NCBI GenBank assembly: GCA_963786955.1
Contig: CAWBAT010000003.1
Span: 192,001-256,000 of the forward strand
DNA: 64,000 nucleotides
Direction of reading: 5' to 3'
DNA from: an uncultured Acidimicrobiia bacterium
GTDB lineage: Bacteria > Acidobacteriota > Terriglobia > Versatilivoradales > Versatilivoraceae
In this document: one piece after another, positions 1 through 43,590 of the stretch
How the letters are laid out: each line of letters opens with the position of its first letter
Position numbering within the stretch: position 1 is the stretch's first letter
Translations under genes and position numbers: made by a program
The notes under the pieces: generated by a model
What the model saw: only the letters and a program-made list of their open reading frames with translations
What the model was told of the DNA's origin: nothing
The model's database searches: none

Positions 1-549
1 GATACAAGTTTGAACTCCTCGAATGCCAGTCCTGCCATAATGATCCGCATGGTGGAGAGTTTGCGGCGCGCGTCGAGAAGGTTTCTTTAAATGGTGGGAA
101 GGACGATTGCCTCAGCTGCCACAACCTCAAGACCTGGAAAGACGTCGTGAAATTTGACCATGCGGAAACAAAGTTTCCTCTCTTCGGAGCTCATCGCGTG
201 GTGGCATGCGCGGATTGTCATCGGCCGGACAACCTGGGGAGGGGTGTCCAGAATATTCGCTTCCGCATGGCCCCGAAAGACTGTGGTGGCTGCCATGAAA
301 ACATTCATGGTGACCAGTTCAAGGTCGACGGCCACAGCCCGGATTGCTCTAGTTGCCATGACGTTTCGAAATGGAAGCCTTCTAAGTTTGATCATGAGAA
401 AAAGGGCGCGTTTCTCCCTGGCTGGTGCGCACCAGTCTGTCCCTTGCCGTCTTTGCCACAAGTCGAAAATTGAAATTGAGGGGCGCGCCATGCTGATCTA
501 TCGCCAGGCGCCAAAACAGTGCTCAGCTTGTCATGCAGACAAAACTTAA
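1..549 (+). CDS. Multiheme cytochrome c, C-terminal part (5' end outside window; one frameshift near 405)
   Basis: Frame 3 from the window start reads CQSCH, CLSCH, CADCH, CGGCH, CSSCH; the shifted frame adds CRLCH, CSACH before the stop at 547-549. FDH...FPLxGAH repeat motifs match the next gene. Confidence 0.9.
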
Positions 550-896
550 ACAGTGGACTAGCGAAGGAGCAATCGATTCATGGTTTCGTTGAGAGTCGGC
601 ACGATGCCGCATTCGCACTGGCTGCCTCTGTGAAGCAATCAGCCGAGCACCGCAGATGGGTACAATGTAAAAATGGCCGCAAGATTGTAAAAAATCCTCG
701 GAATCTTCAAATCACCGTGACTTCAATGTGCAAATGATTTTCGGGAAATTCATGTTTTCTTGCTTCCTCGGATTTTCTCGATACATCTACTCCCGCTCAA
801 CTTTCACCCACCTTGCACCACTTCCGTTTCTATTCCCTAATTTGAGCCGTTGTTGAATTCCCAACCCCAACCAACTAAGACGGGCCTTTCTGAGTA

Positions 897-914
897 TTGG
901 CCAATGAGTTGCAA
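897..914 (+). promoter_or_regulatory. Putative sigma54 (-24/-12) promoter upstream of the giant cytochrome
   Basis: TTGGCCAATGAGTTGCAA has exact GG-N10-GC spacing and a TTGCA -12 element, ~140 bp upstream of the gene in an AT-rich intergenic region. Confidence 0.5.
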
Positions 915-1050
915 TCAATATGATTTGGTCTTTAGCGCACAACCATTCGCAAACTTTTGAAATACAAATTGAAACAAGCTGGAAAACTCTGTACTAACGA
1001 GAGTCTTCTTTACTCTGCAGGCATGAAAGAGCAGATTCTTTCGCTTACAA

Positions 1051-4000
1051 TTGACAGGCTTCAGTGGACAGCGCGTGAAACACGGGAAGCGCCGCGTGCG
1101 GCTGGCTCATCGCTCGAAGGTCGCTAGGGCCAGTTCAATTTTTTCACGGGCTGCGTTGGTACTGCTCTTTCCTTTGTCTTTCGTTTCTCCTCATGTTCTC
1201 AGCAGGGCTATGCAGCCGACAAACGAAATCCTCACGGCTCGTTACAGCTAGTTTGTGAGAGTTGCCACACGACCATAAGTTGGAGGCCAATCCGGAGCAA
1301 ACTAGAGTTCGATCATAACCATGATACCCGTTATCCTTTGCGTGGGTTACATGAAGGAGTGTCTTGTACCAGTTGTCATCGCAGTCTGATATTTAACAAT
1401 GTCGGGACAAAATGTGCTGACTGTCATGCGGATATTCATCGAAGACAATTTGGTCCTCGTTGTGAAGATTGTCATACCGTGCAAGGTTGGAAAGTTAATG
1501 TCCAATCGGTACGGAATCACCTCAACCGTTTCCCCTTGCTTGGGGCACATGCCGCCATCGACTGTGATTCCTGTCATCCAAAGGCTGCCACGAGGAGTCT
1601 ACATTGGTCTCAGCATGGATTGTGTGTCCTGTCATCTCAAAGACTATCAGGGAGCAACCTCTCCAAATCATGCCAGCGCTAATTTCCCACTCACCTGTCA
1701 GACCTGCCACGGAGTTGATCGATGGCAAGGTGCGAAATTTAACCATGCTCAGGTAACCGGATTTGCGTTGGTTGGAGCGCATGCTCAGTTGGAATGCAGT
1801 TCTTGTCACAAAGGACAGCAGTTTAAAGGAACTCCGCGAGATTGTTTTGGATGTCATGCGCAAGACTATAACCGAACAACGAATCCCAACCATGTGGCTG
1901 CCAATTTCCCGAAGGACTGTGCCATTTGTCATGACTCAGAGCATTGGCAAGGAGTCCGATTTGACCATAGCCAGACCGGGTTTGCACTGACGGGGGCGCA
2001 TGTCACGGCGCGATGCGATACCTGCCACCAAGCTGGGCGGTATAAAGGAACTCCAAGAGAATGTTTCAGTTGTCACGTCGCGAAATACGAGGGAACCCAA
2101 AACCCGGATCACCGAAAGGCAAACATCTCGACTCAGTGCGATAGTTGCCACACAACGTCCAATTGGCAGGGGGCCAAGTTTGACCATACATTGACTAAAT
2201 TTGCCCTCACCGGGGCTCATGTCTCAGTCAATTGCACTCAATGCCATGTGAAGGCCAGTTTTCGGGAACCCCCACGGACTGTTTCCTGCCTTATAGCTGC
2301 CATCAGTCAGCTTACAACTAAACCACTAACCCGAACCATCAGAAGGCAGGTTTTTCTCAGAACTGCACGGTCTGTCATACGACTCAGCAGTGGAAAGGCG
2401 CAAAGTTTGACCATAACAACACCAAATTTGCCCTTACCGGGGCTCATAGCTCAGTCGGTTGTGCCCAATGTCATGTGGGAGGGCGGTATGCCGGAACTCC
2501 GACCGATTGCGTCTCCTGTCATTTAAAGGATTTTGATGGAACAACATCACCCAATCACACGGACTGCTAATTTCCCGCGAGATTGCACGGTTTGCCACAC
2601 CACTCAACAATGGAAGGGGGCAAAGTTTGACCATACCAAGACCCGCTTCCCGCTAACTGGCGCCCACATCACCACGAGCTGTGCGCAATGTCACATCAAT
2701 GGAAAGTATACTGGGACGAGCACACAATGCATTGCTTGTCATCAGACTGATTACAATGGGGCAAAGAACCCCAATCACCTTACGGCAGGCTTTCCCGAAG
2801 GATTGCATCGTTTGCCACACCATCACCGGCTGGAAAGGCGCTCGCTTTGATCATAATTCCACGCGCTTTCCGCTGACCGGCTCACATACCAGTGTAAGCT
2901 GTGACAAGTGTCACGTCGGTGGGCAATATGCGGGGACGACGATGCAGTGCGTCGGGCTGTCACAAGGCGGACTACAATGGAACCACAAACCCCAATCATG
3001 TTGCTGCAGGTTTCCCGCAGGACTGCACGGTCTGTCACAACACCGTTCAATGGAAAGGCGCCCACTTTGATCATAATGGCGCGACGAAATTTCCGTTGAC
3101 CGGTGCTCACATTTCTGTCAACTGCAGTCAATGTCACCTGAACAACCGGTTTGCCGGAACGCCATCTGACTGCATCGCCTGCCATCTGGCGGATTATAAT
3201 CGGAACCACGAACCCCAATCACAAAGCAGCAGGATTTCCGCAGACTTGCACGCACTTGCCATACGACGGCGCAATGGAAGGGAGCTCGTTTTGATCACTC
3301 GACGGCCACGCACTTTCCACTTACAGGAGCCCATGTCAACGTTGCTTGTACCCAATGCCATGCCAACAACCGATTTGCCGGAACACCTACGGATTGTGCC
3401 TCCTGTCATTTGAGTGCTTATAACGGAACCACAAATCCCAACCATGTGGCTGCGGGATTCCCTAAAGATTGTTCTTTGTGCCATACGACGACGGCCTGGC
3501 CGGGAGCCAAGTTTGATCATTCGCAAACCAAGTTCCCACTGACGGGCGCTCACGTATCGCTTACTTGCAGCAATTGTCATAGCAGTGGAAAGTACGCCGG
3601 GTTGGGCACGTCCTGTGTCACTTGCCATTTGAAGGAATACAACGCCACGACCAATCCCAATCACGCTGCCGCTGGTTTTCCGCAGGATTGTCAAACCTGC
3701 CACAGCACCACCCAGTGGAAAGGCGCTGATTTTTGATCATAGCAAGACCCGCTTCCCATTGACCGGTGCCCACAGAACCGTCACCTTGTGTGAGTTGTCA
3801 TATCGGTGGACGATACGCGGGAACGCCCATGGATTGCTACAGTTGCCATCGAACTGTATATGAAACCGTGAGCAATCCGAACCATCTTTCCGCCGGCTTC
3901 CCCAAGACCTGCGAGACTTGCCACACGACGACGACTTGGACGGGCGCAACCTTCAACCACAAATTCCCAATTTATTCAGGGACACACAGAGGGAAATGGA

Positions 4001-4168
4001 CCACTTGTAACGATTGCCACACCAATCCGGCGAATTATTCGTTGTTCAGCTGTATCAAATTGTCATACCCACGATAAGACCCCCATGGATCAGAAACATT
4101 CGGGCGTTCGAAACTATGTTTATAACAGTGTGAACTGCTATGCCTGCCATCCAACAGGGAGCAATTAA
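1051..4168 (+). CDS. Giant multiheme cytochrome c (~40 CxxCH) made of tandem ~75-aa triheme repeats; multiple frameshifts
   Basis: Joining ORFs 1051, 1338, 1399, 2533, 2681, 2901, 3410, 3766 and the intervening frames gives a basic plus hydrophobic N-terminus, then repeats FDH-x4-FPLTGAH-x4-CxxCH-x11-CxxCH-x9-PNH-x8-CxxCH, ending CYACHPTGSN* (TAA 4166-4168). Start codon uncertain. Confidence 0.9.
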
Positions 4169-5841
4169 ATGTTGAGAACGATCACCGTTTATTTTGTGCT
4201 CTTCTGCCTTTCTTTTCAGGCCCTTTCTGCCGCTCCGCAGAACGAGGAAAAACAACTCTCTTTTAGGGTCAAATATGTGGCGGCCGATGCCATCTATCTG
4301 GATTCAGGTCTCGAGGCGGGTCTTAAGGAAGGGATGGATTGACCGTCAAGCGGCTCTTGCCCGGAGAGCCGACCATGGCAGCCAAGGTCGTTGGCGAAAT
4401 TGTGGTGACCTCGCTGGCAAGAAGCTCAGCGGTGTGCTCGATTGAATCGTCACAGCTCCCCTTTCAGACGGGGGACATGGCTTTCCTGTCTCAACAAGAT
4501 GCCGAAGCCGTGCACGCCCAGAGCGCTGCGGCAGGCCGAAAATATGCTCAAGTCGTGACGTTTACAGAAGGGGATCCACTGGATGAAGAGATGCGGGAAA
4601 TGGTTCCCCATCCACCGCTTCCCGAAGTGAACCGTATTCGTGGAAGGATTGGTTTCGAAAACAGCAGCATTTGGGATCGCGGAAGCGGGGGGGGCCATTC
4701 TCTTCAGACAGGGCTCGTCGTTAGAGCGGACATGACGAGGATCGGGGGAACCTATTGGAACTTCACTGGCTATTGGCGGGGTCGCATCAACTCCCGTAAT
4801 ACCGGGCCGCAACAGCAAACCCTCACTGACTTGCTCAACCGGACTTATCAGATTGGGCTGCAATACGCCAATCCCCAATCCCGGCTCGTCGCCGGAATCG
4901 GTCGGCTCTATATCCCTTGGGCCAGCAGCTTAAGCACAATTGACGGAGGCTATTTTGGAGCCAGGTTGGGTAAGAATGCCACTGTCGGGTTTTTTGGCGG
5001 TTCTACGCCGGATCCCACAGCTTGGAATTACAACCCGGACCGGCAAATCGCTGGAACCTTCGTCAATTTCGAAGGGGGATCGTATGAACACGTTCGCTAT
5101 ACCAGTACGACTGGTATCGCTTTGACTCGGGTGCAATTCAGGCCGGAACGTGAGTATGCTTTTTTTGAAAACGCGCTGTTCTTCAAGAAATACATCTCAA
5201 TCTATAACAATCTGGAAGTAGACAAATTGACTTTGGGACGCTTTGGGAGCCTCGAGAGCGGGCCTGCGGTGAGCCGAAGTTTCCTGACCGTCCGATATCA
5301 GCCTCACCGGAGAATCGCCTTCGACGTGAATCAAAATTATTTCCGGAACATTCCTACATTCGATACCCGGCTAATTGGGATTGGGCTTCTCGACCGCTAC
5401 CTGTTCCAAGGGTTAAGCGGCGGGGTTCGACTGGAATTACCGTATCGGGTTACGCTCTACACAAGTCTGGGAAGAAGCAAACGCGATTCGGATTTCAAGC
5501 CATCCTTAAACCAGATGTATGGCGTTACATTCAACAGGGTATGGCGCACCGGAATCCGCGCCGATTTTCGTTATTCGCAATTCGATAGTTCCTTTGGAAA
5601 GGGATCTTATTCGGCGATCTCATTTTCCCGAGAAGTGACTGACAAGCTGCGTATAGAGTTGCAAGGGGGAAAGCAAACTCTCGCTTCACCCTTCACTCAA
5701 CAGAGCGATACCTTGTGGATGAACGGTTCATTTGACTATTTTCTAGGGACCCATTACTTCCTGGGTGCCGGTTACATGATTTATCGAGGGCAGGTACAGG
5801 ATTACGACCAATCGTACATTAACTTAGGATATCGATTCTAG
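4169..5841 (+). CDS. Outer-membrane beta-barrel protein (candidate cytochrome-associated porin); frameshift near 4337
   Basis: ATG directly after the cytochrome stop; signal peptide MLRTITVYFVLFCLSFQALSA; alternating amphipathic aromatic/Gly strands; C-terminal SYINLGYRF BAM-type signature. Confidence 0.85.
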
Positions 5842-5894
5842 AGTGAGGTGAATTCCGGTGCTGTTCGGATCAATGTCACAACTCCTATCGGGAG

Positions 5895-6040
5895 AGGGAA
5901 GGTGTGAAGAAATTCCGCCGGGTCGGGGGACCCGGCCTATAACACGGTGGCAGGCGGTTTGGAAGGTTGCAGGCTTGGGGCTTTATCAAAGCCCCAACCT
6001 CACGCGGCGTTTTCCAATTATTTCACACCCTCAGGGGGAC
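5895..6040. repeat. REP-like palindrome cluster inside the cytochrome operon
   Basis: Hairpins GCCGGGTC-GGGG-GACCCGGC (5917-5936) and TTGGGGCTTT-ATC-AAAGCCCCAA, bracketed by inverted GGTGTGAAGAAATT / AATTATTTCACACC. Confidence 0.65.
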
Positions 6041-6124
6041 GCTCAGAGAGCGCCATCGAAATCAATTCTTTCATGCCTTGAGGATTTTGGGGCTGAGGAG
6101 CAGACCGTTTATTCAAGACTTCTG

Positions 6125-6940
6125 ATGATTTTAAGAATGCCATTAGGTTTTGCCGGATGGGGATACTTCTGTTTCATTTCGCTAATCTTTTCCCTCCAAC
6201 TTAAGGTCTCTGCCTCAGAATTTTCTTTGGACACAGTTCTGGATAGGACCGGAAAACGCGTCGAGAAGCTACTGGATCGGTTTTCCGAGGTCACTTGCAC
6301 CGAGGTCGTGTCGCAAACGAAGCTTGGCCCAAGCGGAAAAGTAGCCTCGCAAACAAAAGTGACCTTCGATACATTAATCATCCTGCAGATGACGGACGAT
6401 GATATCAGTATCGAGGAGTCGAGATTGGAGCAAGGGAAACCAATCAAAGGGAAGAATACGGAAAAATCCTTGCTTGTGACCAACGGATTCTCAGTATTCT
6501 TGATGGTCTTTCATCCCTCTTTCAGAAGCAGTTTTGAATTCGAATTGGGAGACACGAATGATTTGGGTGGGCAGCGAATGCAGATCGTCCATTTTCAGCA
6601 AGTTCGTGGAAAACGGTCTCCCTCGGCTCTCCAATTGAGGGGACGCGACTACCCACTTGAGTGGGAAGGGGAAGCCTGGGTTGATCCCCGCACCGGCTAT
6701 GTTGCCCGAATGACGGCAACACTAAAGACAAGCTTGGAAGATGTAGGGCTCAAAAGCCTGAGCAGTGAAGTCGTTTATCAACCGGTGACATTTGTGGGGG
6801 CCGGGGAGACCCAATGGTTACCGTCAGTTGCCATGATCGAGGCTGTGTCGTTAAAGCAACACTGGAGGAACACACATCAATTTTCAAATTACCGTCTCTT
6901 TTCAGTCAACACGAGCACTAAGACTGAGGATCCGCAATGA
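6125..6940 (+). CDS. Hypothetical secreted beta-rich protein
   Basis: ORF 5858-6940; the upstream part translates REP sequence, so the likely start is ATG 6125 or 6137 followed by a signal-like segment. Stop overlaps the next ATG (ATGA). Confidence 0.7.
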   Translation: MILRMPLGFAGWGYFCFISLIFSLQLKVSASEFSLDTVLDRTGKRVEKLLDRFSEVTCTEVVSQTKLGPSGKVASQTKVTFDTLIILQMTDDDISIEESRLEQGKPIKGKNTEKSLLVTNGFSVFLMVFHPSFRSSFEFELGDTNDLGGQRMQIVHFQQVRGKRSPSALQLRGRDYPLEWEGEAWVDPRTGYVARMTATLKTSLEDVGLKSLSSEVVYQPVTFVGAGETQWLPSVAMIEAVSLKQHWRNTHQFSNYRLFSVNTSTKTEDPQ

Positions 6941-7888
6941 AAGAAAGAATGACTTTGGCGCAACCCGTGCGTCTTTTGTCTATCCCTCTAGTGGGGCCCA
7001 ATCTCCGTCATCGAGCTTGTCTCGGAGCAGCCTGGCTGGTGGCTGGGATTCTCATCGTGAGCTTGGCGATCCACGGTTACACCTACTATAAGCTCCCGCT
7101 GCCCAAAGAGTCTTTTCTCCCTTTCATGCATCCTTGAAACCGAGTGGAAGCATCGGACTCCGACTTGGAATATTGGGTACTGTTCTTTTCGGATTTCTCT
7201 ATTTATACCTCATCCGAAAACGCTGGGGTTGGCTGGGCAGGATTGGAAAAACAAGACATTGGCTCGACTTTCACGTACTTTTCGGTACTACCGCGCCAAT
7301 TATCATCACGTTTCATTCCTCCTTTAAACTTCACGGGCTGGCAGGGGTGGCTTACTGGATCATGATGGCAGTGATGATCAGCGGTATCGTTGGTCGATAT
7401 CTCTACGCCATGGTCCCGAGGAGTTTAAGTTCCATGGAAATGTCGTTAAAGAAATGGAAGAAATCATTGCGCTCCAGTCCCGGCAGTTAGGACATCAGGC
7501 ACTCGTCGGGACGCAGGAATTGGAACCCCTATTCCAGGTACCGTCTGCGGATGAGGCCCGGCGCATGTCACTTTATCGAGCGCTGTTAACCCTGGTATGG
7601 CTGGATTTGGCGCGGCCCTTTCAAGTCAGCCGGTTGCGACGGCAGTCCATCTCTCCCTTCACGAAGTTCATCACCCTTGGAGGACTTTTCCCTTCCAGGG
7701 ATGAAGTCCTGGAGACGATTGTCTCAACGGCCAAACGACAGTCCTTGCTGCTCACACGGATACTGTTCCTCGACAGGATTCACCAGGTATTTCATCTCTG
7801 GCATATCGTGCACCGGCCGTTCAGTTATTCTTTTGCAGCGCTTGTCGTTGTCCATATTGGGGTCGCCTTGTGGCTCGGGTATTTTTAG
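6937..7888 (+). CDS. Polytopic inner-membrane protein with conserved His (cytochrome b/ferric-reductase-like); two frameshifts
   Basis: ORFs 6937-7137, 7134-7490 and 7454-7888 join into one protein with TM helices and motifs WLDFHV, ITFHSSFK, HLWHIVHRPF, VVHIG. Confidence 0.7.
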
Positions 7889-7906
7889 TGAACGGATAAA
7901 AAACAA

Positions 7907-8530
7907 ATGAAAAAAAGTATGACGAAGACGCGGCACTCCATACTACTCCTCAGTATTATCCTGGTGACCGGTGCTCTCATCTATTTCACGTTGCCCAGAA
8001 AATCGACTTCACTATCCAAGGTGACGAAAGTAAATCCTGTTGCGGCCCCGGAGATGCAGAAGGAGCATGCCGATAAAGGTGAAAAGTCCCATGAATTAAG
8101 AACCCTGGAGGCGCAACTCCAACAGAAACCGGATCATACTCCAATTCTGTTGCGGCAGGCCGAGATCTATCGCGAAATGGGAAAGCCCACAGAATCGGCG
8201 AAGCTTCTAAAGCAAATTGTTGCCAATGAACCGAACAATTCTCAGGCACAATTAGAGCTAGGCCGAGTTCTCTATGATTCCGGGGACATTCAGGGAGCCA
8301 TCGCAGCGACGAATACGATCCTGAAAAATGATCCCAAAAATACAGATGCCCTCTATAACCTCGGGGCGATTTATGGGAATCTGAATAACGAAAAACTGGC
8401 CCAAGAGTATTGGAACCGTACCATTACCGCTGACCCTTATTCCGCAAGTGCTGATCTTGCCCGTCAAGCGCTGACCCGCATGAGTCACTCGGCGGGTGAA
8501 ACTAGTCAGACCGCGAAAATTTCGAAATAA
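7907..8530 (+). CDS. Membrane-anchored TPR protein
   Basis: N-terminal TM helix, then TPR motifs (AQLELGRVLY, ALYNLGAIY). Confidence 0.85.
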   Translation: MKKSMTKTRHSILLLSIILVTGALIYFTLPRKSTSLSKVTKVNPVAAPEMQKEHADKGEKSHELRTLEAQLQQKPDHTPILLRQAEIYREMGKPTESAKLLKQIVANEPNNSQAQLELGRVLYDSGDIQGAIAATNTILKNDPKNTDALYNLGAIYGNLNNEKLAQEYWNRTITADPYSASADLARQALTRMSHSAGETSQTAKISK

Positions 8531-8735
8531 TTGAAAGTCCGGGCTTTTGCCAGGCTTGGCTAATGTTTTTCTCGAATCTTTTGTGACTCAATTATTTTTA
8601 GTTTGTCTTTTCGAATGTTGCTGGCAGGACGGGGGCAATGGGCTCTAGTCTAAAATGGTAATGGAGCAAGCTAAATTTGGTTCAGACCGTTCCGCGTCAA
8701 GGACCGCACGTGGATTGTACGGTCAACTCGCCATT

Positions 8736-9143
8736 TTAGGGGGGAGACTTTGTCTTCTTGCTGAGCACATGGGCTTCACGAACAAATCGAGCCATGGACT
8801 TTGAAAGATGTCCCAGCACGATAATCCATTCTTCGAAATGACGTTCCCCATTGGATGTCAACTTATAAAGACGTCTCGCCGGACCACTCCCACCCACATT
8901 CCATACCGAGACAACATTGCCATTCTTTTCCAATTGCCGGAGCGTTCGGTAGAGAGCGGCCACTTCGATTTCCGCATCGGTCAAGGCATGCGCCTTTAGT
9001 TCGTTGGCTAAATCATAGCCATAGGATTGGCCCTTCGTCTTCAAGAGAAAGAGCACAACAGGCTCAACAAATCGATACAGATTGCCCATCGCACAACTGC
9101 AGGGATATTCTCGACCGTGACGTAAGCAGATCTTTCGAGCCAT
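8736..9143 (-). CDS. PadR-family winged-helix transcriptional regulator with Cys/His N-terminal extension
   Basis: SYGYDL...ALYRTLRQLEKNGNV...GPARRLYKLTSNG PadR signature; N-terminus CLRHGREYPCSC. Confidence 0.85.
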   Translation of the reverse strand: MARKICLRHGREYPCSCAMGNLYRFVEPVVLFLLKTKGQSYGYDLANELKAHALTDAEIEVAALYRTLRQLEKNGNVVSVWNVGGSGPARRLYKLTSNGERHFEEWIIVLGHLSKSMARFVREAHVLSKKTKSPP

Positions 9144-9242
9144 AGATTTGAGGGTCCCTATATATTGTTCACCAAAGTTTTTTTTCGGACCGGAGCGGAC
9201 TAAAAAATCTGTTGCATGATACTAACAGATTTGTCAATATAG

Positions 9243-9255
9243 ATGCAAGTTGCAT
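9243..9255. promoter_or_regulatory. Candidate operator palindrome between the divergent PadR and secreted-protein genes
   Basis: ATGCAA-G-TTGCAT perfect inverted repeat, with an extra TTGCAT half-site near 9212. Confidence 0.4.
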
Positions 9256-9325
9256 ATAGTTTGTCCGGACCACTCTTACGAGCCGCTCCGGGATATTCAA
9301 AGAAATAAAAGAAAGGAGTCGAGCC

Positions 9326-9814
9326 ATGAAAATCATTGCCAAGCTTGGTCTCATCTTACTTCTCTGGTTCTTAAATCTTACCCCAGTCTCGGCACACTGC
9401 TGGGGCCACCATGGGGATTGCTGCCGTTCCGGGAACGACATGGGAACCTGTGCGGATTGTACTTGGAGATACACCCCGCCTTGTCAGAACGGCCATTTTG
9501 TGGCTCAAGGGTCGGTGCAGAATCTCGAAACAATAAAGGGAAAGGTTGCTGAGGTGAACTACTTGCCTGGCGCCGGCGCCAGTAGTGCGATGGTTGAGAT
9601 TCAATTGCAGGGTGATGCCCCAACAACCCCGGTTCGTCTGGGACCGACTGGCTTTCTCAGTCGAAACGGACTGGGCCTTAAAGAGGGAGACGTGGTTCAG
9701 GTTCGCGGTTATCGCGTGAGTGCCAATGAGGTTGAATTCCTTGTCGCGACCGAGATTGAGAAGAATGGCAAAAACCTGGTCTTGCGAAACGAGCGAGGTC
9801 GGCCTGCTTGGTGA
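9326..9814 (+). CDS. Secreted protein, MamS/MamX-like C-terminal beta domain, Cys/His-rich N-terminus
   Basis: RBS AAGGAG, signal peptide, HCWGHHGDCC...CADC; C-terminus VRLGPTGFL...GDVVQVRG...LRNERGRPAW. Confidence 0.7.
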   Translation: MKIIAKLGLILLLWFLNLTPVSAHCWGHHGDCCRSGNDMGTCADCTWRYTPPCQNGHFVAQGSVQNLETIKGKVAEVNYLPGAGASSAMVEIQLQGDAPTTPVRLGPTGFLSRNGLGLKEGDVVQVRGYRVSANEVEFLVATEIEKNGKNLVLRNERGRPAW

Positions 9815-9963
9815 GGTGGCAGGTACCACGCTAAAACAGGCAACTTGGCGGTATTATTTGCTGGCCGAAAGTGCTCGTCGCATCCTCCCGTTTGCGATGG
9901 AGTGGTTAAGTCAAGACGCTCGACCAGCGCGGGGTAGGATCGAGAGAGTAAAGGGGGTTCTTC

Positions 9964-10407
9964 ATGACACACAAGACGCTGTGGGCGACGGTGTGTAGCG
10001 TTGCCTTGGCGGCGATGGTCTCCATGCCGACGCTCGCGCAACAAGGGGTGGGAGGGAGAAAGGGCTCGCCGCACTACAACCCGAAGACGGAAGTGACATT
10101 CAAAGGCACGGTCCAGGAAGTCAAGGAGTATCCGAGTCAGGGAGGCGGCTCGCGTACTGGCCTGCACGTGATCCTTAAGACGGATAACGGCAGTTTTGAC
10201 GTTCACGTCGGCCCGACCGATTACTGGAAGAAGAATGGATTCGAACTGACCAAGGGGGACTCGATCCAGGTGATTGGCTCGAAGATCAAAGTGGATGACG
10301 CAGAGTTCATTATCGCACGCGAGGTTAAGAAGGGCGACAAGGCCGTTACGCTACGCAACGCCGAGGGGGTTCCCGCCTGGTCCGGTGGACGACGGTCTCC
10401 TCCTTAG
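9964..10407 (+). CDS. Secreted protein, paralog of the previous gene (MamS/MamX-like domain)
   Basis: Signal peptide; YNPKTEVTFKGTV...VHVGPTDYW...GDSIQVIGS...LRNAEGVPAW. Confidence 0.75.
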   Translation: MTHKTLWATVCSVALAAMVSMPTLAQQGVGGRKGSPHYNPKTEVTFKGTVQEVKEYPSQGGGSRTGLHVILKTDNGSFDVHVGPTDYWKKNGFELTKGDSIQVIGSKIKVDDAEFIIAREVKKGDKAVTLRNAEGVPAWSGGRRSPP

Positions 10408-12609: not shown

Positions 12610-13875
12610 TTACTTTGCCATTGTCCTTTCAAAAGTTGCGGGCAGGGTGGCAGTGGTGCTAGGGTTCGCGATTCCAGCTTCGCCATTTTCCAGCCATTTC
12701 CTGGCGACAGTGCGCACTTTTTCCAGATTGTCTCCACCCACCCCGATTAAGGAATAAAATACCCTTCGTGCCGATTGGTCGTTCGGTAGATCCCAGAAAT
12801 CCATGCCGGCAGGCGAGAAGTGGTTCGGATAGATCTTGAGAGAATCACCGTTCACTTCATGGGCCTGACTGTTAAGCCAGCCGATCGGCCAATGATCCCA
12901 GGACTTCGAAACCCAGCCCCAACCGCCGGTATCACGGAAGCTATGTTCCTTGATGCGGGTAAAATCATGCCGAAAGCCTGAAGCATCTCCAAAAACGCAG
13001 AATGGAGCACCGTCCCGCATCGGTACAATGAGGGCCACTCCAGCTGAGTCGTCGAGCAGTTTCCAATCGGCTCCAGCACGGCGAGGTGTTGCCTTCCAAA
13101 TCGGGTTGGATTCGGGAGTGGGTTTCCAAAATACATCGTACCGACTACTGGAGAAAGGATCGAGCACAGCCAAGGCATGGCTTTCTCCCGTCCGGTCGTC
13201 CTTTCTGAGCACATCACTCCACATTTTATCAACTGGACACATCCCGATCATTTCAATGGGTTCGCGAGCATAGCCTTTGTTCTCTTTAGGGATCAGTGAT
13301 TCATAGGTTTGACGTCGCAGAATCAAGCCGTTTGGGTAAGCCCAAAAATCTTCGCTAGCGCGGTAGGCAGGTTGCCCACTATCCATGTTTACGCCGAAGT
13401 AGGTCCATCTTACCCAGACACGCTCGGGGCCCGATTCGATAATGTCAACAAAGCTATTTTTGTCTTTTCGCCCCCAGTCGTTAAACAATTCGGCCCAGCC
13501 TTCATTTCCTTCAAAGAACTGATAGCAAAAACCTGTCCCGGAGGGGAATTCAAACCAGGGACAATAACTTCCCTCGTGGCAGAAAACGAATCGGAAAGGG
13601 AAGTCCTTCCAAAAGACAATGAAAGCCTTCTTGGGATTGCCGTCGGCATGGGGTGGGCTTGGAAGATCCCCTTTGTAATTCCCGAAGATATAGTCTGTCA
13701 CTTCGACAACCGAAACACCTTCTGTCTTGAGGCGGCTCACTTCCGCTACCGTCAGCGGAAGGGGCTTGATCAGCGGACTCGATATCTTTTCCCCTGCTGA
13801 AAGCTGAAAACCGGTTAGCGCTATCGCTGCCAGCAGAATATAGAAAAGAATGCGAAACAATTTAAGATCCTTCAT
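12610..13875 (-). CDS. Hypothetical secreted Trp-rich protein
   Basis: Clean 421-aa ORF with RBS GGAGGG and signal peptide; no family recognised with certainty. Confidence 0.75.
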   Translation of the reverse strand: MKDLKLFRILFYILLAAIALTGFQLSAGEKISSPLIKPLPLTVAEVSRLKTEGVSVVEVTDYIFGNYKGDLPSPPHADGNPKKAFIVFWKDFPFRFVFCHEGSYCPWFEFPSGTGFCYQFFEGNEGWAELFNDWGRKDKNSFVDIIESGPERVWVRWTYFGVNMDSGQPAYRASEDFWAYPNGLILRRQTYESLIPKENKGYAREPIEMIGMCPVDKMWSDVLRKDDRTGESHALAVLDPFSSSRYDVFWKPTPESNPIWKATPRRAGADWKLLDDSAGVALIVPMRDGAPFCVFGDASGFRHDFTRIKEHSFRDTGGWGWVSKSWDHWPIGWLNSQAHEVNGDSLKIYPNHFSPAGMDFWDLPNDQSARRVFYSLIGVGGDNLEKVRTVARKWLENGEAGIANPSTTATLPATFERTMAK

Positions 13876-14184
13876 TGACCCTCCGTTCTACACAGCAGTA
13901 ACAGGCCCCCAAGCTTATCTTCCACCGGAGCACCGGACCAAAGACGCTAATTTTGTCACCCTTTTGCTGCCCTGCCGCCGGAAGACCGAAACGCCAAAAA
14001 CGCGAAGAGCGCCAAGAGAAAAAAAAGAGATCTGGGCTGCTGCTGGTTGATTCCAAGAGCCTGGAGCTTAGGCTCGCTACCCAATGAGCGCGGCCTCAAT
14101 GCCGCCCTGAGCCACCTCGATGGCGATCCCGTAAGCCCCTGAGTGGTCATTGCGTTCTTGGCGTTTCCACACCATTCTCGTATG

Positions 14185-15412: not shown

Positions 15413-15971
15413 AGGGATGTCCTCTTCCTGAAGTTTTCATTAAAGGGCGATGGATTCCAGTAGATGGAACGTCTTGGCTGCACAATTATCCTTTCGGACG
15501 AAGCAATTTAGATGCCGTGCCAAGGTTTGTGTGGATGGGCTGTGCGCCTCTTCTTTATTTTGCCTATTGGCAAAGATCAGGCTTCTGGATCTCTCTTCAC
15601 GACAGGGGCATCTCCAGAGGAGAATCCCCAACAGAGCTCTCTCAACTCACACGCAATAGCCTGAAGTGTGCTCTCTTCTGGTGTTTGGTACGTCTGGTGC
15701 TATTGCGCCATTCGACCCACACCTTGGCAAGATCCCCCGGGAATCAAAGATTGGAAAATAGTGGGGGGACATTCATCCCCATTTCCAATCGGGATGCGTG
15801 ATCGAGACCGATTTATCTCTTAACCTTAGGGTGAAAAATCTTAACATTGGCATGACAAACAGAGGATTGCGTACTATCATCTTTCTACCGTCTAAAAAGA
15901 CAATGTCCTTGATATTCTCAAGCAGAATGAGCGGATTAAAGTAGGGCTCAAAAAATCACATCACAAATCGA

Positions 15972-18713
15972 ATGCAGAGGATGATCAAATTTTTAACATC
16001 GGCTGAGCATAGGGGCTTCGCCTTTTTTGGGGCAAGACTGCTGTTCAGTGGGGTCATTACCGGAGCTGTGCTCGTTTATGGTACAGGACTATCCTTTTTA
16101 ACCGGGTCTCCGGCGCAAAACGCATCTACGAACCAAATGGGAGTGCGAATGATCATTGTGTACTCAACTGGAGAGGCGGAGAGAATCTTGGAGCGATTGA
16201 AAAGTGGCCTGGAATTTGCGGTGGTTGCGCGAGAGGAGTCCGTAGACCCCACCGCAGTCAACGGCGGCCTCTTGAGTAGGTCCGATATTGCGACACTACA
16301 GCCTGAGTTGAGAGACGCGTTGAAGGGCCTTGAACCAGGGCAGCTTTCACCCATCGTTCAGATACCATTAGGTTATGCAATCTTGAAGCTTTTGTCGCAA
16401 TCCGAAGTGGTGGATATCGAGGAGTCTGACCGTTCTCGGTTGGCCGCCACCAAAGCTCTGGGTAACGTGCGGCTTCCGGCTGATGTTGACGGACGCGCGG
16501 AGGCATTATCGGCTCTGGTTCGGCTCCCCAGGAAGAATGGCTGGGACCAGGACTTGCAGGCGATCTGTGAGTCGTACAACCAATCGTTTTCCGTGTCCAT
16601 GGAAGGGCTCGAGAAGATGCTGAGCCCAACTAGCAAGGAGGGTGCAGATTATGTGAAGTATGCCAAGCCGCTTGATGTGATGCAGGCTCACGTCGCCAAG
16701 GGACAACTCCATGCCTACAAAGGCGAAATGGAGAAGGCCGTCGAAGAGTGGGAAATCGCATACCGGATTGCGGTGGAGGATGTCCCTCTGATTTTGCCTC
16801 GGATGGATGAAATGCTCGGGATTGGCTATCTGCACAAATCCGAGATGGATAATGACGTGTATCGAAATCCCGGCGAGAGGTGCCTTTTCCCAATGCCTCT
16901 GGGGATCCGATACGCGAAAACGGCTAGTTCTGAGAAAGCCATTCAGTATTTCTCCAGATATCTCGAGAAAAAGCCCGACGAGCTCGAAGTGAAATGGCTA
17001 CTGAATTTGACCTACATGACGTTGGGAGAATACCCGGCTGGGGTTCCGCAAAAGTACCTGCTGCCCCCCGCTCTGTTCACATCTATTGAGAATGTCGGAC
17101 GATTTAAAGACGTGGCCCCCGAAGCCGGATTGAACCTGTTCGTGATGGCCTCGGGCGTGATCGTGGATGACTTCGATAATGATGGATTATTCGAGGTGGT
17201 GACTACGAGTTGGGACAGTTGCGAGCCGATGCACTATTTGCACAACAATGGGAAGGGGAGCTTCACAGACCAAGCCGCGAAGGCAGGACTATCAAACCAG
17301 TTGGGTGGGTTGAACCTCATGCAGACAGACTACAACAACGATGGATGCTTGGACATTCTGGTGTTGCGGGGAGCCTGGCAATCGCTGGGGCAGCGCAAAT
17401 CGTTGCTCCGAAATAATTGCAACGGAACCTTCACTGATGTCACCCAAGAGAGCGGCCTGGCAAAGCCGGCCACGAACACGCAGGCCGGAGTTTGGGCGGA
17501 TATCAACAACGACGGTTTTCTTGATCTCTTCGTGGGTAACGAGAATGGCCCCAGCCAGTTATTTCTGAATAAGGGTGACGGGACCTTCACAGACATCTCC
17601 CAATCTGCCGGCATCGACCAAACCAAGTTCACGAAGGGAGTTGTGGCGGAAGATTATGACAACGACGGGTACGTGGATTTCTACGTTTCGAACGTGATCG
17701 GCTACAACTTTCTATATCACAACAAGCACGATAGAACCTTCACAGAGATCGCGGATCAAGCCAGAGTGCCGGGGACCGGAAGGAGCTTCGCCACCTGGTT
17801 CTTTGACTATGACAATGATGGTTGGCCTGACATTTTCGATACAGCCTACCAGGCGTCGGTTGATGAGACCGTGCGTACCTACCTCGGGCTTCCTCACAAT
17901 GCCCCATCCTCAAGACTATACAAGAACCTGGGAAATGGCGCGTTCCGCGATGTGACCAAGGAAGTCGGACTTGACCGGGTCTTCATGCCCATGGGCGCTA
18001 ATTTCGGCGACGTGGATAACGACGGATATTTGGATATCTACCTCGGCACCGGTGACCCTTCTTATGCCTCTCTGGTTCCCAATATCTTGTTCCGCAATAA
18101 GGAAGGAAAATCTTTCGTCGATATCACCGCTTCTTCGGGCACCGGCGAGTTGCATAAAGGACACGGCGTCGCCTTTGTAGACATTGACAACGATGGCGAC
18201 GAAGATATTTTCACCTCAATTGGTGGTGCGGTGCCTGGTGACCGTCATGCATTCCGCCTTTTCGAGAACCCTGGCAACGGCAACAATTGGATCAGTCTGC
18301 GGCTAGTGGGAAGCAAGTCAAACCGGGCCGCGATTGGAGCGAAGATCAAAGTGACGGTGAAGAACGAGGGCCAGCCAATCCGGGCGATCTATCGCACCGT
18401 CGGCAGTGGAGGGTCTTTTGGAGCGTCCCCGTTGCAGCAACACATCGGTTTAGGCAAATCGGCGCAGATTGTGAGCCTCGAAATAAGGTGGCCGGGAGGA
18501 AGCATGACACCGCAAATATTCTCCAACGTAGGCAAGAACCAGTTTCTCGAAATCAAAGAGTCTGCCGCGGACTATACGAAACTCGAGCGGCGGCCGTTCC
18601 ACCTGGGAGGCACGAAGAATGAGGCCTCGATCCCCGTCAACCCTTCCGCGGATCATCAAAAGCAAAAGGGTGCAGACGGAGTAATTCAACAGGGAATTCA
18701 GCGGATACGGTGA
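15972..18713 (+). CDS. Parvulin-PPIase + TPR + FG-GAP (CRTAC1/ASPIC-UnbV) protein
   Basis: EFAVVAREESVDP...GG.L...LEPGQLSPIV rotamase-like segment; DFDNDG/DYNNDG/DINNDG repeats; NRAAIGAKIKV...QHIGLG ASPIC-UnbV tail. Confidence 0.88.
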   Translation: MQRMIKFLTSAEHRGFAFFGARLLFSGVITGAVLVYGTGLSFLTGSPAQNASTNQMGVRMIIVYSTGEAERILERLKSGLEFAVVAREESVDPTAVNGGLLSRSDIATLQPELRDALKGLEPGQLSPIVQIPLGYAILKLLSQSEVVDIEESDRSRLAATKALGNVRLPADVDGRAEALSALVRLPRKNGWDQDLQAICESYNQSFSVSMEGLEKMLSPTSKEGADYVKYAKPLDVMQAHVAKGQLHAYKGEMEKAVEEWEIAYRIAVEDVPLILPRMDEMLGIGYLHKSEMDNDVYRNPGERCLFPMPLGIRYAKTASSEKAIQYFSRYLEKKPDELEVKWLLNLTYMTLGEYPAGVPQKYLLPPALFTSIENVGRFKDVAPEAGLNLFVMASGVIVDDFDNDGLFEVVTTSWDSCEPMHYLHNNGKGSFTDQAAKAGLSNQLGGLNLMQTDYNNDGCLDILVLRGAWQSLGQRKSLLRNNCNGTFTDVTQESGLAKPATNTQAGVWADINNDGFLDLFVGNENGPSQLFLNKGDGTFTDISQSAGIDQTKFTKGVVAEDYDNDGYVDFYVSNVIGYNFLYHNKHDRTFTEIADQARVPGTGRSFATWFFDYDNDGWPDIFDTAYQASVDETVRTYLGLPHNAPSSRLYKNLGNGAFRDVTKEVGLDRVFMPMGANFGDVDNDGYLDIYLGTGDPSYASLVPNILFRNKEGKSFVDITASSGTGELHKGHGVAFVDIDNDGDEDIFTSIGGAVPGDRHAFRLFENPGNGNNWISLRLVGSKSNRAAIGAKIKVTVKNEGQPIRAIYRTVGSGGSFGASPLQQHIGLGKSAQIVSLEIRWPGGSMTPQIFSNVGKNQFLEIKESAADYTKLERRPFHLGGTKNEASIPVNPSADHQKQKGADGVIQQGIQRIR

Positions 18714-19585: not shown

Positions 19586-19777
19586 CCAGACAAATTCGGC
19601 TACGGTATTGGGGAGACGACAATATCAGGCTGCATGCACTCTGTCTCAATAGATCTGATATTTCAGGAGTCACTGAGTGTTGAGACTTAAGATATTTCTT
19701 TATAAGATTTCATATCTTTGTGACTGAGTTTTCCTAAATCAGCGTCTGTCGACTAAATCAAGATTCTTCCGAGAAAT

Positions 19778-43560: not shown

Positions 43561-43590
43561 AAGAACTCATATCGAATCCCATTGAATCCT

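What the first reader, a model, noticed from the sequence alone, without database searches (positions are those of the whole stretch)
1..8530. Complete-looking porin-cytochrome extracellular electron transfer operon in a probable acidobacterium
Seen in sequence: co-oriented, closely linked genes for a multiheme cytochrome (>=7 hemes in window), a ~40-heme cytochrome, a beta-barrel whose ATG directly follows the cytochrome stop, a secreted protein, a His-rich TM protein (ATGA overlap) and a TPR protein. Established: MtrCAB (Shewanella) and Pcc/OmabcB (Geobacter) use a porin plus multiheme cytochromes to carry electrons across the outer membrane. Inference: this is an architecturally different conduit spanning inner membrane to cell surface. 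The proteins lack the MtrA/MtrB motifs I recognise and the barrel (~550 aa) is smaller than MtrB.
Basis: partly seen in the sequence, partly recalled or inferred. Interest (0 to 1): 0.85.

Follow-up and report, generated by a model that had tools for sequence, protein, structure and literature searches.

The report
Acidobacterial porin-cytochrome electron conduit cluster
A soil acidobacterium carries a widely conserved but apparently undescribed gene cluster that looks built to carry electrons from the cell interior to the outside through very long haem-wire proteins and an outer-membrane barrel, although in this particular sequence the genes are riddled with frameshifts.

Summary
They are the last 7 haem sites of one multihaem cytochrome and a second cytochrome with 36 readable CXXCH (its intact 83%-identical ortholog has 40). 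Then come a 556-aa barrel whose ATG abuts the cytochrome's TAA, a secreted protein, a His-bearing membrane protein (ATGA overlap) and a TPR protein.

The DNA is damaged: at least 14 frameshifts and one in-frame stop. Other genes of the window are split too, so this is probably assembly error.

The cluster is strongly co-conserved. 430 stretches in species genomes encode the barrel, and 77 of the 80 loci fetched have a multihaem cytochrome just upstream. Cytochrome 1 almost always has 23 haems; cytochrome 2 ranges from 16 to 112, in steps of three.

The barrel models as 22 strands, belongs to no known family, and is not MtrB. The membrane protein has four invariant His placed as in dihaem b cytochromes. 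In 55 of 80 loci a ferredoxin-FAD/NAD(P) reductase follows it, and elsewhere the two are fused; this window lacks that gene.

Best reading: a new variant of porin-cytochrome conduit with a quinone-independent input.

The parts
3..549 (+). 3' part of multihaem cytochrome 1. It carries 7 CXXCH; the intact orthologs have 23. One frameshift near 405 moves the reading from frame 3 to frame 1; the stop is at 547-549.
   Evidence: Pfam Cytochrome_C7 E 2.2e-08. The L001 ortholog is 646 aa with 23 CXXCH.
1051..4168 (+). Multihaem cytochrome 2. It has a signal peptide, a conserved N-terminal module, 73-74-aa three-haem repeats and a conserved C-terminal module. 36 CXXCH are readable. It has 10 firm and 2 doubtful frameshifts and one in-frame stop near 2319.
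   Evidence: The L001 ortholog is 1039 aa with 40 CXXCH. Pfam Cytochrome_C7 scores 150.6 bits in 12 stretches. Repeat spacing is 32/16/25 residues.
4169..5841 (+). Outer-membrane protein of 556 aa. It has a signal peptide, a small N-terminal beta domain, a conserved segment modelled as unstructured (about 4516-4623) and a barrel predicted with 22 strands. One frameshift lies near 4337.
   Evidence: No Pfam or NCBIfam family.
5842..6124 (.). Spacer of about 280 nt with two G+C-rich hairpins (about 5916-5937 and 5971-5998). The L001 ortholog has only 27 nt at this place.
6125..6940 (+). Secreted protein of 271 aa with a signal peptide and no known family. The frame is open throughout.
   Evidence: Conserved next to the barrel in 71 of 78 loci with enough DNA. 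There is only a weak lead to the LolA/RseB-like fold.
6937..7888 (+). Inner-membrane protein of about 316 aa. It has five predicted membrane helices, a cytoplasmic helical domain and four invariant His. I read it as a dihaem b-type transmembrane electron carrier. Frameshifts lie near 7099 and 7446.
7907..8530 (+). Membrane-anchored TPR protein of 207 aa. The gene is intact.
   Evidence: Pfam TPR_19 E 5.4e-19. A homolog lies in 30 of 80 loci, either upstream or downstream of the cluster.
8539..8559 (+). Terminator-like hairpin just after the TPR stop, possibly the end of the operon.
   Evidence: The number of such sites in the region is not above the shuffled expectation, so only its position speaks for it.

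Best explanation
This is a frameshift-damaged and 5'-truncated copy of a gene cluster conserved across Acidobacteriota. I read the cluster as encoding an electron path out of the cell, in two modules.

Outer module (cytochrome 2 plus the barrel). This is the most conserved pair. The barrel is an outer-membrane protein of about 22 strands, with a periplasmic N-terminal domain that in some lineages also carries a cell-wall-binding AMIN domain. It holds or sheathes one end of cytochrome 2. Cytochrome 2 is a linear all-bis-His haem wire made of three-haem units, so electrons can cross the outer membrane as in porin-cytochrome complexes.

Inner module (cytochrome 1, the secreted protein and the membrane protein). 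In most relatives, NAD(P)H is oxidised in the cytoplasm by a membrane-anchored ferredoxin-FAD protein. Electrons then cross the inner membrane through two b haems held by four invariant His of the membrane protein. They are taken up by cytochrome 1, whose fixed 23 haems would about span the periplasm, and passed on to cytochrome 2.

Consequences. The flow is outward and quinone-independent. It would act as an electron sink (iron, humics, particulate organic matter) rather than a proton-pumping respiration. The TPR protein may help mature the giant cytochromes.

Shown: gene content, co-conservation, haem arithmetic, predicted folds, the His pattern and the fusion. Inferred: haem b binding, direction of flow, which cytochrome contacts the barrel, and that anything reaches the cell surface.
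For: Co-conservation.
- 430 of 505 candidate stretches in species genomes encode a relative of the barrel; 80 loci were fetched.
- 77 of the 80 have a multihaem ORF (at least 4 CXXCH) just upstream of the barrel. The other 3 have fewer than 1.5 kb of upstream DNA.
- The secreted protein follows the barrel in 71 of 78 loci with enough DNA, and the membrane protein in 63 of 74.
- Six loci with ample flanks keep only cytochrome 2 plus the barrel.

Coupling of the genes. The barrel's ATG abuts the stop of cytochrome 2, and the secreted and membrane genes overlap by ATGA.

Haem arithmetic.
- Cytochrome 1 has 23 CXXCH in 42 of the 45 loci that hold two intact cytochrome genes.
- Cytochrome 2 has 22-97 CXXCH in those 45 loci, and the count is 1 modulo 3 in 41 of them.
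- Counts of 16 and 112 occur in loci outside that set.
- The number of His is about twice the number of haems, for example 32 His for 16 haems and 226 for 112.

Barrel. The AlphaFold2 model has pLDDT 78.5, with 22 strands after an N-terminal beta domain. Long forms carry AMIN at E 6e-15.

Membrane protein.
- The model has pLDDT 85.7.
- H113, H127, H293 and H307 are kept in 47 of 47 orthologs and in 4 of 4 fused relatives. Each pair is 14 residues apart on two helices that run the same way.
- Positive charge is concentrated on the N-terminal side.

Flavoprotein.
- The next gene in 55 of 80 loci encodes an N-terminal membrane helix, a 2x[4Fe-4S] domain and an FAD/NAD(P) domain.
- The same domains are fused to this membrane module in a 743-aa Anaeromyxobacteraceae protein (E 3.1e-34, 86% of the query covered) and in Atlas clusters.

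Physiology. One carrier is a Paludibaculum fermentans strain (L057). The species reduces Fe(III) (PMC8407742, abstract and passages).
Against: - No result shows a cytochrome inside the barrel or outside the cell.
- The barrel's nearest solved folds are pilus ushers and generic porins at TM-scores of 0.28-0.39. MtrB is not among the 50 matches listed.
- I could not measure the lumen. A conserved segment, modelled as unstructured, might plug it.
- Both cytochromes have plain Sec signal peptides and no lipoprotein signal.
- The closest characterised haem polymers, GSU1996 and its kin, are periplasmic and are thought to store charge (PMC10138318, passages).
- Haem b binding is inferred from the His pattern only. 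The Pfam cytochrome b561 match is weak (15.3 bits against a cut-off of 30.1) and no solved fold matches.
- In this window and in its closest relative L001 the flavoprotein gene is not next to the cluster, and no homolog lies anywhere in the 64 kb.
- The genes here are broken.
Confidence: 0.55

Rival explanations
1. Periplasmic charge store or periplasmic redox chain. The two cytochromes stay in the periplasm, as is proposed for the Geobacter haem polymers. The barrel is an unrelated envelope protein, for example an anchoring or export pore, that merely shares the operon.
For: - The repeats are c7-type three-haem units (Pfam Cytochrome_C7, 12 stretches), like GSU1996/GSU2210, which are periplasmic (PMC10138318, passages).
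- The signal peptides are plain Sec type.
- The barrel has no likeness to MtrB.
- Its AMIN and FlgT_C-like domains point to a structural role in the envelope.
Against: - Cytochrome 2 and the barrel stay adjacent in 77 of 80 loci, and as a bare pair in six, with stop-ATG abutment here.
- If the roughly 1 nm per haem of GSU1996 holds here (my extrapolation), a wire of up to 112 haems would be several times longer than a periplasm of about 200 A (PMC7096707 and PMC10138318, passages).
Confidence: 0.15
2. Electron uptake. The same hardware runs inward, as in PioAB/MtoAB iron oxidisers, and brings electrons from Fe(II) or reduced humics into the cell.
For: Porin-cytochrome modules without a surface cytochrome are known from iron oxidisers (PMC7096707, passages). 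No MtrC-like surface cytochrome is encoded in the cluster.
Against: - The conserved partner is an NAD(P)-type flavoprotein with low-potential FeS clusters.
- Reducing it from Fe(II) across a membrane that is negative inside is uphill twice over (my inference).
- The one cultured carrier belongs to an iron-reducing species (PMC8407742).
Confidence: 0.08
3. In this genome the cluster is a decaying pseudogene array: the frameshifts and the stop are real, so the system does not work in this organism.
For: - There are 10-12 frameshifts and a nonsense codon in the 3.1 kb of cytochrome 2.
- Several other long genes of the window are intact, for example 15945-18710 and 43510-46446.
- No DNA-level tandem repeat is present that could explain misassembly.
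Against: - Unrelated genes of the window are split in the same way. The OMP_b-brl_4 gene at 53916-57697 is in at least six pieces, and the PSD1/PSCyt2 gene at 39565-42772 is in several.
- Read through, cytochrome 2 is 83% identical to its L001 ortholog, like the barrel at 84%, so there is no sign of relaxed constraint.
- All but one of the 10 firm shifts are single-base insertions, which looks like a sequencing error pattern.
Confidence: 0.15

Closest known systems
MtrCAB of Shewanella (and MtoAB/PioAB)
   Same: A multihaem cytochrome gene lies directly upstream of an outer-membrane barrel gene. The proposed logic, a haem wire sheathed by a barrel, is the same (PMC7096707, passages).
   Different: - No family membership. 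The DmsE/MtrA model scores 36.2 bits against a cut-off of 192.2, and the OmcA/MtrC model 20.1 against 209.3.
- The barrel hits no Pfam or NCBIfam family and no PDB sequence.
- It has 22 modelled strands, against 28 predicted for MtrB in the papers I read (26 in the solved structure, recalled).
- The cytochromes have 23 and 16-112 haems, not 10.
- There is no MtrC-like surface cytochrome, and the input is not a CymA-type quinol oxidase.
Geobacter-type Pcc clusters (OmaB-OmbB-OmcB and Ext clusters)
   Same: The barrel lies in the 18-22 strand range reported for Pcc porins. It is clustered with periplasmic multihaem cytochromes (PMC4245776, passages).
   Different: - Pcc periplasmic cytochromes have 5-14 haems and come with a 12-haem outer cytochrome (PMC4245776 and PMC7096707).
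- Here there are 23 haems plus a variable 3n+1 count, and no third cytochrome.
- That survey does not mention Acidobacteria (0 occurrences).
- Sequence homology to OmbB could not be tested because I had no reference sequence.
GSU1996 / GSU0592 / GSU2210 'nanowire' cytochromes of Geobacter
   Same: Single polypeptides built from c7-type three-haem domains, with the haems in a line (PMC10138318, passages). Pfam Cytochrome_C7 matches 12 stretches of cytochrome 2.
   Different: - The NCBIfam three-haem domain model scores below its cut-off: 29.3 and 34.5 bits against 40.
- phmmer finds no PDB relative.
- GSU1996 domains have one His-Met haem each. Here the number of His is twice the number of haems and Met is scarce.
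- Lengths reach 112 haems, against 12-27.
- The gene is tied to a barrel gene.
EET1/EET2 clusters of peat Acidobacteriota (Fiorito et al. 2026 preprint, 10.64898/2026.05.27.727921)
   Same: Conserved porin plus multihaem cytochrome clusters in Terriglobales and Bryobacterales, divergent from Mtr/Omc and transcribed in peat (abstract, sections 8, 9 and 12 read).
   Different: The text describes cytochromes of 8-13 haems that are OmcE-, MtrC-, MtrA- or OwcA-like. It mentions no 23-haem or repeat-expanded cytochrome in the clusters and no inner-membrane flavoprotein module ('inner membrane' and 'NADH' occur 0 times). I could not see its figures or supplements, so overlap with this cluster cannot be excluded.
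Transmembrane dihaem b electron carriers with a cytoplasmic NAD(P)H flavoprotein (NOX/ferric-reductase type; recalled, not tested)
   Same: Works alike on paper: NAD(P)H, then FAD, then two b haems stacked across the membrane on His pairs about 14 residues apart, then an outside acceptor.
   Different: - No sequence or fold match to any solved protein.
- There is an extra 2x[4Fe-4S] domain.
- The partner is a separate gene in most loci.
- The acceptor is a periplasmic multihaem cytochrome.

Membership tests
MtrB/PioB outer-membrane porins | Sequence match to the family (Pfam model or a solved MtrB chain) | tested here: not met
   No Pfam family at E up to 0.1 for the window's barrel or the L001 barrel. 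A profile of 14 barrels against all PDB sequences gave only Symplekin at E 1.6. MtrB is not among the 50 Foldseek matches listed.
MtrB/PioB outer-membrane porins | 26-28 transmembrane strands | tested here: not met
   The AlphaFold2 model has 22 strands between residues 156 and 555 (my count from the DSSP list). 28 are predicted for MtrB in PMC4245776 and PMC7096707.
MtrA/DmsE decahaem cytochromes (TIGR03508) | Score above the curated cut-off; 10 haems | tested here: not met
   22.8 and 36.2 bits against a cut-off of 192.2. The cytochromes have 23 and 40 CXXCH.
OmcA/MtrC surface decahaem cytochromes (TIGR03507) | Score above the curated cut-off | tested here: not met
   16.7 and 20.1 bits against a cut-off of 209.3.
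Geobacter-type Pcc | Porin with 18-22 transmembrane strands | tested here: met
   22 strands in the model. The range is taken from PMC4245776.
Geobacter-type Pcc | Periplasmic cytochrome of 5-14 haems plus an outer 12-haem cytochrome | tested here: not met
   23 haems in 42 of 45 loci, and 16-112 haems for cytochrome 2. There is no third cytochrome gene in L001, L003, L041 or L057.
Geobacter-type Pcc | Sequence homology to OmbB/OmaB/OmcB | not testable with these tools
   No reference sequences or named models were on hand. NCBIfam gave no family for the barrel.
c7-type three-haem polymer cytochromes (GSU1996 kind) | Tandem three-haem c7-like domains | tested here: met
   Pfam Cytochrome_C7 scores 150.6 bits in 12 stretches. 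The repeat is regular at 73-74 aa, with CXXCH spacing of 32/16/25 residues.
c7-type three-haem polymer cytochromes (GSU1996 kind) | NCBIfam domain model TIGR04257 above its cut-off | tested here: not met
   29.3 bits (L001) and 34.5 bits (L041) against a cut-off of 40.
c7-type three-haem polymer cytochromes (GSU1996 kind) | One His-Met haem per domain | tested here: not met
   32 His and 4 Met for 16 haems; 226 His and 15 Met for 112 haems. This is counting only; the ligands themselves were not seen.
Cyc2-type fused porin-cytochromes | Haem motif within the barrel protein | tested here: not met
   0 of 270 barrel-family proteins examined hold a CXXCH.
Dihaem transmembrane b-type cytochromes | Two His pairs, 13-14 residues apart, on two membrane helices running the same way (the criterion is recalled) | tested here: met
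   H113/H127 and H293/H307 are present in 47 of 47 orthologs and in 4 of 4 fused relatives. The helices are 106-127 and 279-313.
Dihaem transmembrane b-type cytochromes | Match to a known family such as Pfam Ni_hydr_CYTB | tested here: not met
   15.3 bits against a cut-off of 30.1. No PDB sequence hit. The best Foldseek E-value is 0.6.

The most novel reading that the evidence does not exclude
Cytochrome 2 is a single-polypeptide haem nanowire whose length is tuned genetically. Lineages add or drop three-haem units, giving 16 to 112 haems. That is roughly 15 to 110 nm if the 1 nm per haem of GSU1996 holds here. A dedicated barrel of an unknown family anchors it in the outer membrane, or exports it, so that most of the wire stands outside the cell. 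It is charged directly from cytoplasmic NAD(P)H through a ferredoxin-flavoprotein, a new dihaem membrane protein and a 23-haem bridge across the periplasm, with no quinone involved. That would be a complete cytoplasm-to-environment wire of a kind not described, in one of the most abundant soil phyla.
Probability: 0.2. Interest if true: 0.9.

Novelty: new variant of a known kind. Interest (0 to 1): 0.7.

Why it matters
Acidobacteriota are among the commonest soil and peat bacteria, and how they dispose of electrons without oxygen is an open question for carbon and methane budgets. This cluster occurs in hundreds of their species genomes. Its parts match no characterised family: a barrel of unknown kind, a cytochrome of fixed length, a cytochrome whose haem count varies seven-fold in units of three, and an inner-membrane entry that seems to bypass quinones. 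One cultured iron reducer, Paludibaculum fermentans, carries it, so the model can be tested directly. If it holds, annotation tools for iron and electron-transfer genes are missing a major system.

Tried and rejected
- Complex prediction. The central contact is therefore untested.
- Sequence searches of solved structures found nothing for the barrel, the membrane protein, the secreted protein or either cytochrome.
- The fold search of the membrane protein found nothing significant.
- The LolA/RseB-like lead for the secreted protein from the Atlas did not hold up. Only 1 of 57 orthologs touches MucB_RseB, at E 0.028.
- No DNA tandem repeats lie in 1-8600. The window has no Rfam family and no tRNA. 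Promoter and terminator scans were not above chance.
- A frameshift that my aligner called in the secreted gene near 6181 is rejected. The frame is open from 6125 to 6940, and tblastn aligns residues 24-275 in that same frame.
- I considered the Cyc2-type fusion and rejected it.
- Literature searches (one search failed on a term that was too short) found no description of this architecture. The supplements and figures of the 2026 preprint were not available to me.


Full report
OBSERVATION

- CXXCH motifs number 43 in the three + frames of 1-4500. The controls are 0 on the opposite strand, 6 on both strands of the remaining 59.5 kb, and a mean of 0.145 in 200 shuffles.
- The motifs hop between frames. 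A frameshift-aware alignment to the intact proteins of the closest genome locus (L001, a Terriglobia MAG) places the breaks:
  - one shift in cytochrome 1, near 405;
  - ten firm shifts in cytochrome 2 (1590-4054), plus two doubtful ones in its signal peptide and an in-frame stop near 2319;
  - one shift in the barrel, near 4337;
  - two shifts in the membrane protein, near 7099 and 7446;
  - none in the TPR gene.
- A shift called in the secreted gene is an alignment artefact, because that frame is open from 6125 to 6940.
- The barrel's ATG at 4169 follows the TAA at 4166-4168, and ATGA joins the secreted and membrane genes at 6937-6940.
- Cytochrome 1 is cut by the window edge: 7 of its 23 haem sites remain.
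- Read through, cytochrome 2 matches 1027 of the 1039 residues of the 40-haem L001 protein at 83% identity. '~40 haems' is therefore right, although only 36 motifs are readable.

ARE THE BREAKS REAL?

Other genes of the window are split in the same manner. An OMP_b-brl_4 outer-membrane gene at 53916-57697 is in at least six pieces, and a PSD1/PSCyt2 gene at 39565-42772 is in several. Some long genes are whole, however (15945-18710 and 43510-46446).

Nine of the ten firm shifts in cytochrome 2 are single-base insertions. Read through, the protein is as similar to L001 (83%) as the barrel is (84%). I take the breaks as assembly error, at about 0.8, with a decaying operon as the alternative.

CO-CONSERVATION

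- The barrel has more than 3700 relatives in the large protein set, nearly all about 555 aa and unnamed. The best are 96% and 86% identical.
- A profile search of 1.84 billion representatives gave 1443 clusters at E up to 0.001 and 281 at E up to 1e-30.
- In one genome per species, 430 of 505 candidate stretches encode a relative, and the best 80 were fetched.
- By record title, almost all are Terriglobia, Terriglobales, Bryobacterales or 'Acidobacteriota' MAGs. One is Paludibaculum fermentans strain T20B24 (L057).
- A multihaem ORF lies just upstream of the barrel in 77 of the 80 loci. The three exceptions have fewer than 1.5 kb of upstream DNA.
- The secreted protein follows in 71 of 78 loci with enough DNA, and the membrane protein in 63 of 74.
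- A TPR homolog is present in 30 of 80 loci, on either side of the cluster.
- Six loci with long flanks (L035, L041, L046, L048, L053, L069) hold only a short cytochrome 2 (16-28 haems) and the barrel.
- Two of those six share a MAG with a full cluster: L053 with L072, and L069 with L077. The bare pair therefore behaves as a module that can be duplicated on its own.

THE CYTOCHROMES

- Among the 45 loci with exactly two intact cytochrome ORFs, cytochrome 1 has 23 CXXCH in 42 and 13 in 3.
- In those 45 loci, cytochrome 2 has 22 to 97 CXXCH, and the count is 1 modulo 3 in 41. Outside that set there are 16-haem forms and one of 112 haems and 2820 aa (L052).
- An alignment of the short forms shows a conserved N-terminal module, a conserved C-terminal module, and insertions of whole three-haem units between them.
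- In L001 the units are 73-74 aa long, with haem spacing of 32/16/25 residues. His residues number about twice the haems and Met is rare, which fits bis-His ligation throughout.
- Pfam sees c7-type domains (150.6 bits, 12 stretches).
- Every curated NCBIfam model is below its cut-off (MtrA/DmsE, OmcA/MtrC, HmcA, and the three-haem 'nanowire' domain). phmmer finds no solved relative.
- The nearest characterised proteins are the Geobacter haem polymers GSU1996 (12 haems; '12 nm' in the title of its structure paper as cited) and GSU2210 (27 haems). These are periplasmic and are thought to act as capacitors (PMC10138318, passages).
- If about 1 nm per haem holds here (my extrapolation), 23 haems would roughly match a periplasm of about 200 A (PMC7096707, passage). 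A wire of 40 to 112 haems would far exceed it.

THE BARREL

- AlphaFold2 on 66 sequences gave pLDDT 78.5 and pTM 0.64. The model has a signal peptide, a small beta domain (30-106), a helix, a segment below pLDDT 50 (117-152), and then 22 strands to the C-terminus.
- The low-confidence segment is among the best conserved parts of the protein (invariant F131, P136, E140, R142). This remains unexplained; it could be a partner-binding or a lumen-lining stretch.
- Foldseek finds only generic relatives: pilus ushers FimD/PapC (E 3e-10, TM 0.35-0.39), porins and AlgE. MtrB is not among the 50 matches listed.
- No Pfam or NCBIfam family matches the barrel part, even in 32 distant relatives of 510-555 aa.
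- Long forms (745-1153 aa, common in Terriglobales) add an N-terminal AMIN domain (4 of the 5 tested, best E 6e-15) and a long Pro/Ala/Thr/Ser linker. The N-terminal beta domain weakly matches FlgT_C.
- None of 270 family members holds a CXXCH, so this is not a fused Cyc2-type protein.
- Twenty-two strands is fewer than MtrB has, but it lies within the 18-22 reported for Pcc porins (PMC4245776, passage).
- From the textbook barrel formula (recalled), I estimate a C-alpha radius near 20 A for 22 strands, against about 23.5 A for 26. That is an estimate, not a measurement.

THE INNER-MEMBRANE END

- The 317-aa membrane protein models well (pLDDT 85.7). It has five long membrane helices and a helical domain between the fourth and fifth.
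- H113, H127, H290, H293 and H307 are present in all 47 orthologs.
- H113/H127 sit on helix 106-127 and H293/H307 on helix 279-313. Each pair is 14 residues apart, and the two helices run the same way. That is the classic arrangement for two b haems stacked across a membrane (criterion recalled).
- Net positive charge lies on the side of the N-terminus, the loop between helices 2 and 3, and the helical domain (about +11 against about +3). That side should therefore be cytoplasmic.
- No family, solved sequence or solved fold matches: Pfam b561 scores 15.3 bits against a cut-off of 30.1, and the best Foldseek E-value is 0.6.
- The Atlas pointed to proteins in which this module is joined to FAD and 4Fe-4S domains. 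A search for longer relatives confirmed it: 7 hits, the best a 743-aa Anaeromyxobacteraceae protein (E 3.1e-34, 86% of the query covered) with Fer4 and Pyr_redox domains ahead of the membrane module. H113, H127, H293 and H307 are kept; H290 is not.
- In 55 of the 80 loci the gene straight after the membrane protein encodes the same parts as a separate protein. These are an N-terminal membrane helix followed by a basic stretch, a 2x[4Fe-4S] domain, and a thioredoxin-reductase-like FAD/NAD(P) domain. The best NCBIfam match is YpdA, at 175 bits and below its cut-off. I saw no CxxC active site in the L003 sequence.
- Gene fusion and gene neighbourhood thus agree that the membrane protein works with a cytoplasmic NAD(P)H-type flavoprotein.
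- This window and L001 lack that gene beside the cluster, and tblastn finds none in the 64 kb. Here the electron donor is unknown.

HOW IT MOST LIKELY WORKS

I read two modules.

- Inner module: NAD(P)H, then FAD, then FeS, then two b haems, then cytochrome 1. This brings electrons into and across the periplasm without quinones.
- Outer module: cytochrome 2 plus the barrel. This takes them through, or at least to, the outer membrane.

Outward flow is favoured by the potentials of the parts. It would cost membrane potential, so the system looks like an electron sink for fermentative or oxygen-starved cells rather than an energy-conserving respiration (inference).

That would suit Paludibaculum fermentans, a facultative anaerobe that reduces Fe(III) and whose genome paper mentions only 'multiple membrane-bound multihaem cytochromes' (PMC8407742, abstract and passages).

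The TPR protein weakly resembles the CcmH/CycH TPR domain (26.6 bits against a cut-off of 42). It may chaperone the giant apocytochromes (inference). The secreted protein has no assignable role.

WHAT IS KNOWN

- Porin-cytochrome clusters in Acidobacteria have been noted for Holophaga, as MtrB-like and ExtB/E-like types (PMC7399161, passages).
- A 2026 preprint describes conserved, transcribed clusters EET1 and EET2 in peat Terriglobales and Bryobacterales, with cytochromes of 8-13 haems (10.64898/2026.05.27.727921; abstract and sections 8, 9 and 12 read). Its text does not mention 23-haem or repeat-expanded cytochromes in those clusters, nor an inner-membrane module.
- My searches found no paper describing this architecture.
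- The survey of Pcc clusters does not mention Acidobacteria.

I therefore file this as a new variant of the porin-cytochrome kind and not as a member of the Mtr or Pcc families.

LIMITS

- The one computation that bears directly on the central claim, a complex prediction of the barrel with cytochrome 2, could not be run.
- I had no coordinates from which to measure the lumen.
- I could not see which organisms hold the distant barrel relatives.
- All functional statements rest on sequence, predicted structure and gene context.

Noticed in passing
L052:1365-9827 (also L030, L009, L067): Cytochrome 2 reaches 112 CXXCH in 2820 aa in a Bryobacterales MAG, and 97 and 85 in others. The haem count is 1 modulo 3 in 41 of the 45 loci that hold two intact cytochrome genes.
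   Followed up: partly
window about 4516-4623 (L001 barrel residues 117-152): This segment of the barrel protein is among the most conserved in the family (invariant F, P, E, R), yet it is modelled below pLDDT 50. It may be a partner-binding or lumen-lining stretch.
   Followed up: no
L041:9140-11473; L051:8225-11479; P0123, P0133: Terriglobales-type barrels carry an N-terminal AMIN domain and a Pro/Ala/Thr/Ser-rich linker of 100-400 residues ahead of the domains shared with the window's protein.
   Followed up: partly
window 53916-57697 and 39565-42772: A CarboxypepD_reg/OMP_b-brl_4 outer-membrane gene is split into at least six ORF pieces, and a PSCyt2/PSD1 gene into several. Frameshifts are therefore window-wide, though other long genes are intact.
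   Followed up: partly
window 5842-6124: A spacer of about 280 nt with two G+C-rich hairpins lies between the barrel and the secreted-protein gene. L001 has 27 nt at this place. It could be an inserted repeat element or an internal attenuator.
   Followed up: no
window 8736-10407: A PadR-family regulator lies on the minus strand. Next to it are two paralogous small secreted proteins (9260-9814 and 9952-10407) with no Pfam family; the first has a Cys/His-rich N-terminal stretch.
   Followed up: no
L001:147-4107 (minus strand, upstream of cytochrome 1): In the closest relative, an FMN_bind protein, a two-domain multicopper oxidase and a CarboxypepD_reg outer-membrane protein lie divergently upstream of the cluster. 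The window starts too late to show whether it has them.
   Followed up: no
L057:123-2397 and 18789-20144: In Paludibaculum fermentans T20B24 the cluster is flanked by two RepA/RPA-like replication-initiator genes and a DDE transposase. That hints at an integrated mobile region.
   Followed up: no
window 12610-13887 (minus) against L001:14149-15315: A conserved hypothetical gene of 421 aa is whole in the window but split into two ORFs in L001, so the relative's assembly has breaks of its own.
   Followed up: no
window 32116-32800: A nucleotidyltransferase plus HepT-like RNase pair, which is a toxin-antitoxin type module.
   Followed up: no
L050 and L064 (record titles): Two loci with typical cluster content carry record titles naming Bordetella parapertussis (a MAG) and Candidatus Dormiibacterota. 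These are probably binning or labelling artefacts.
   Followed up: no
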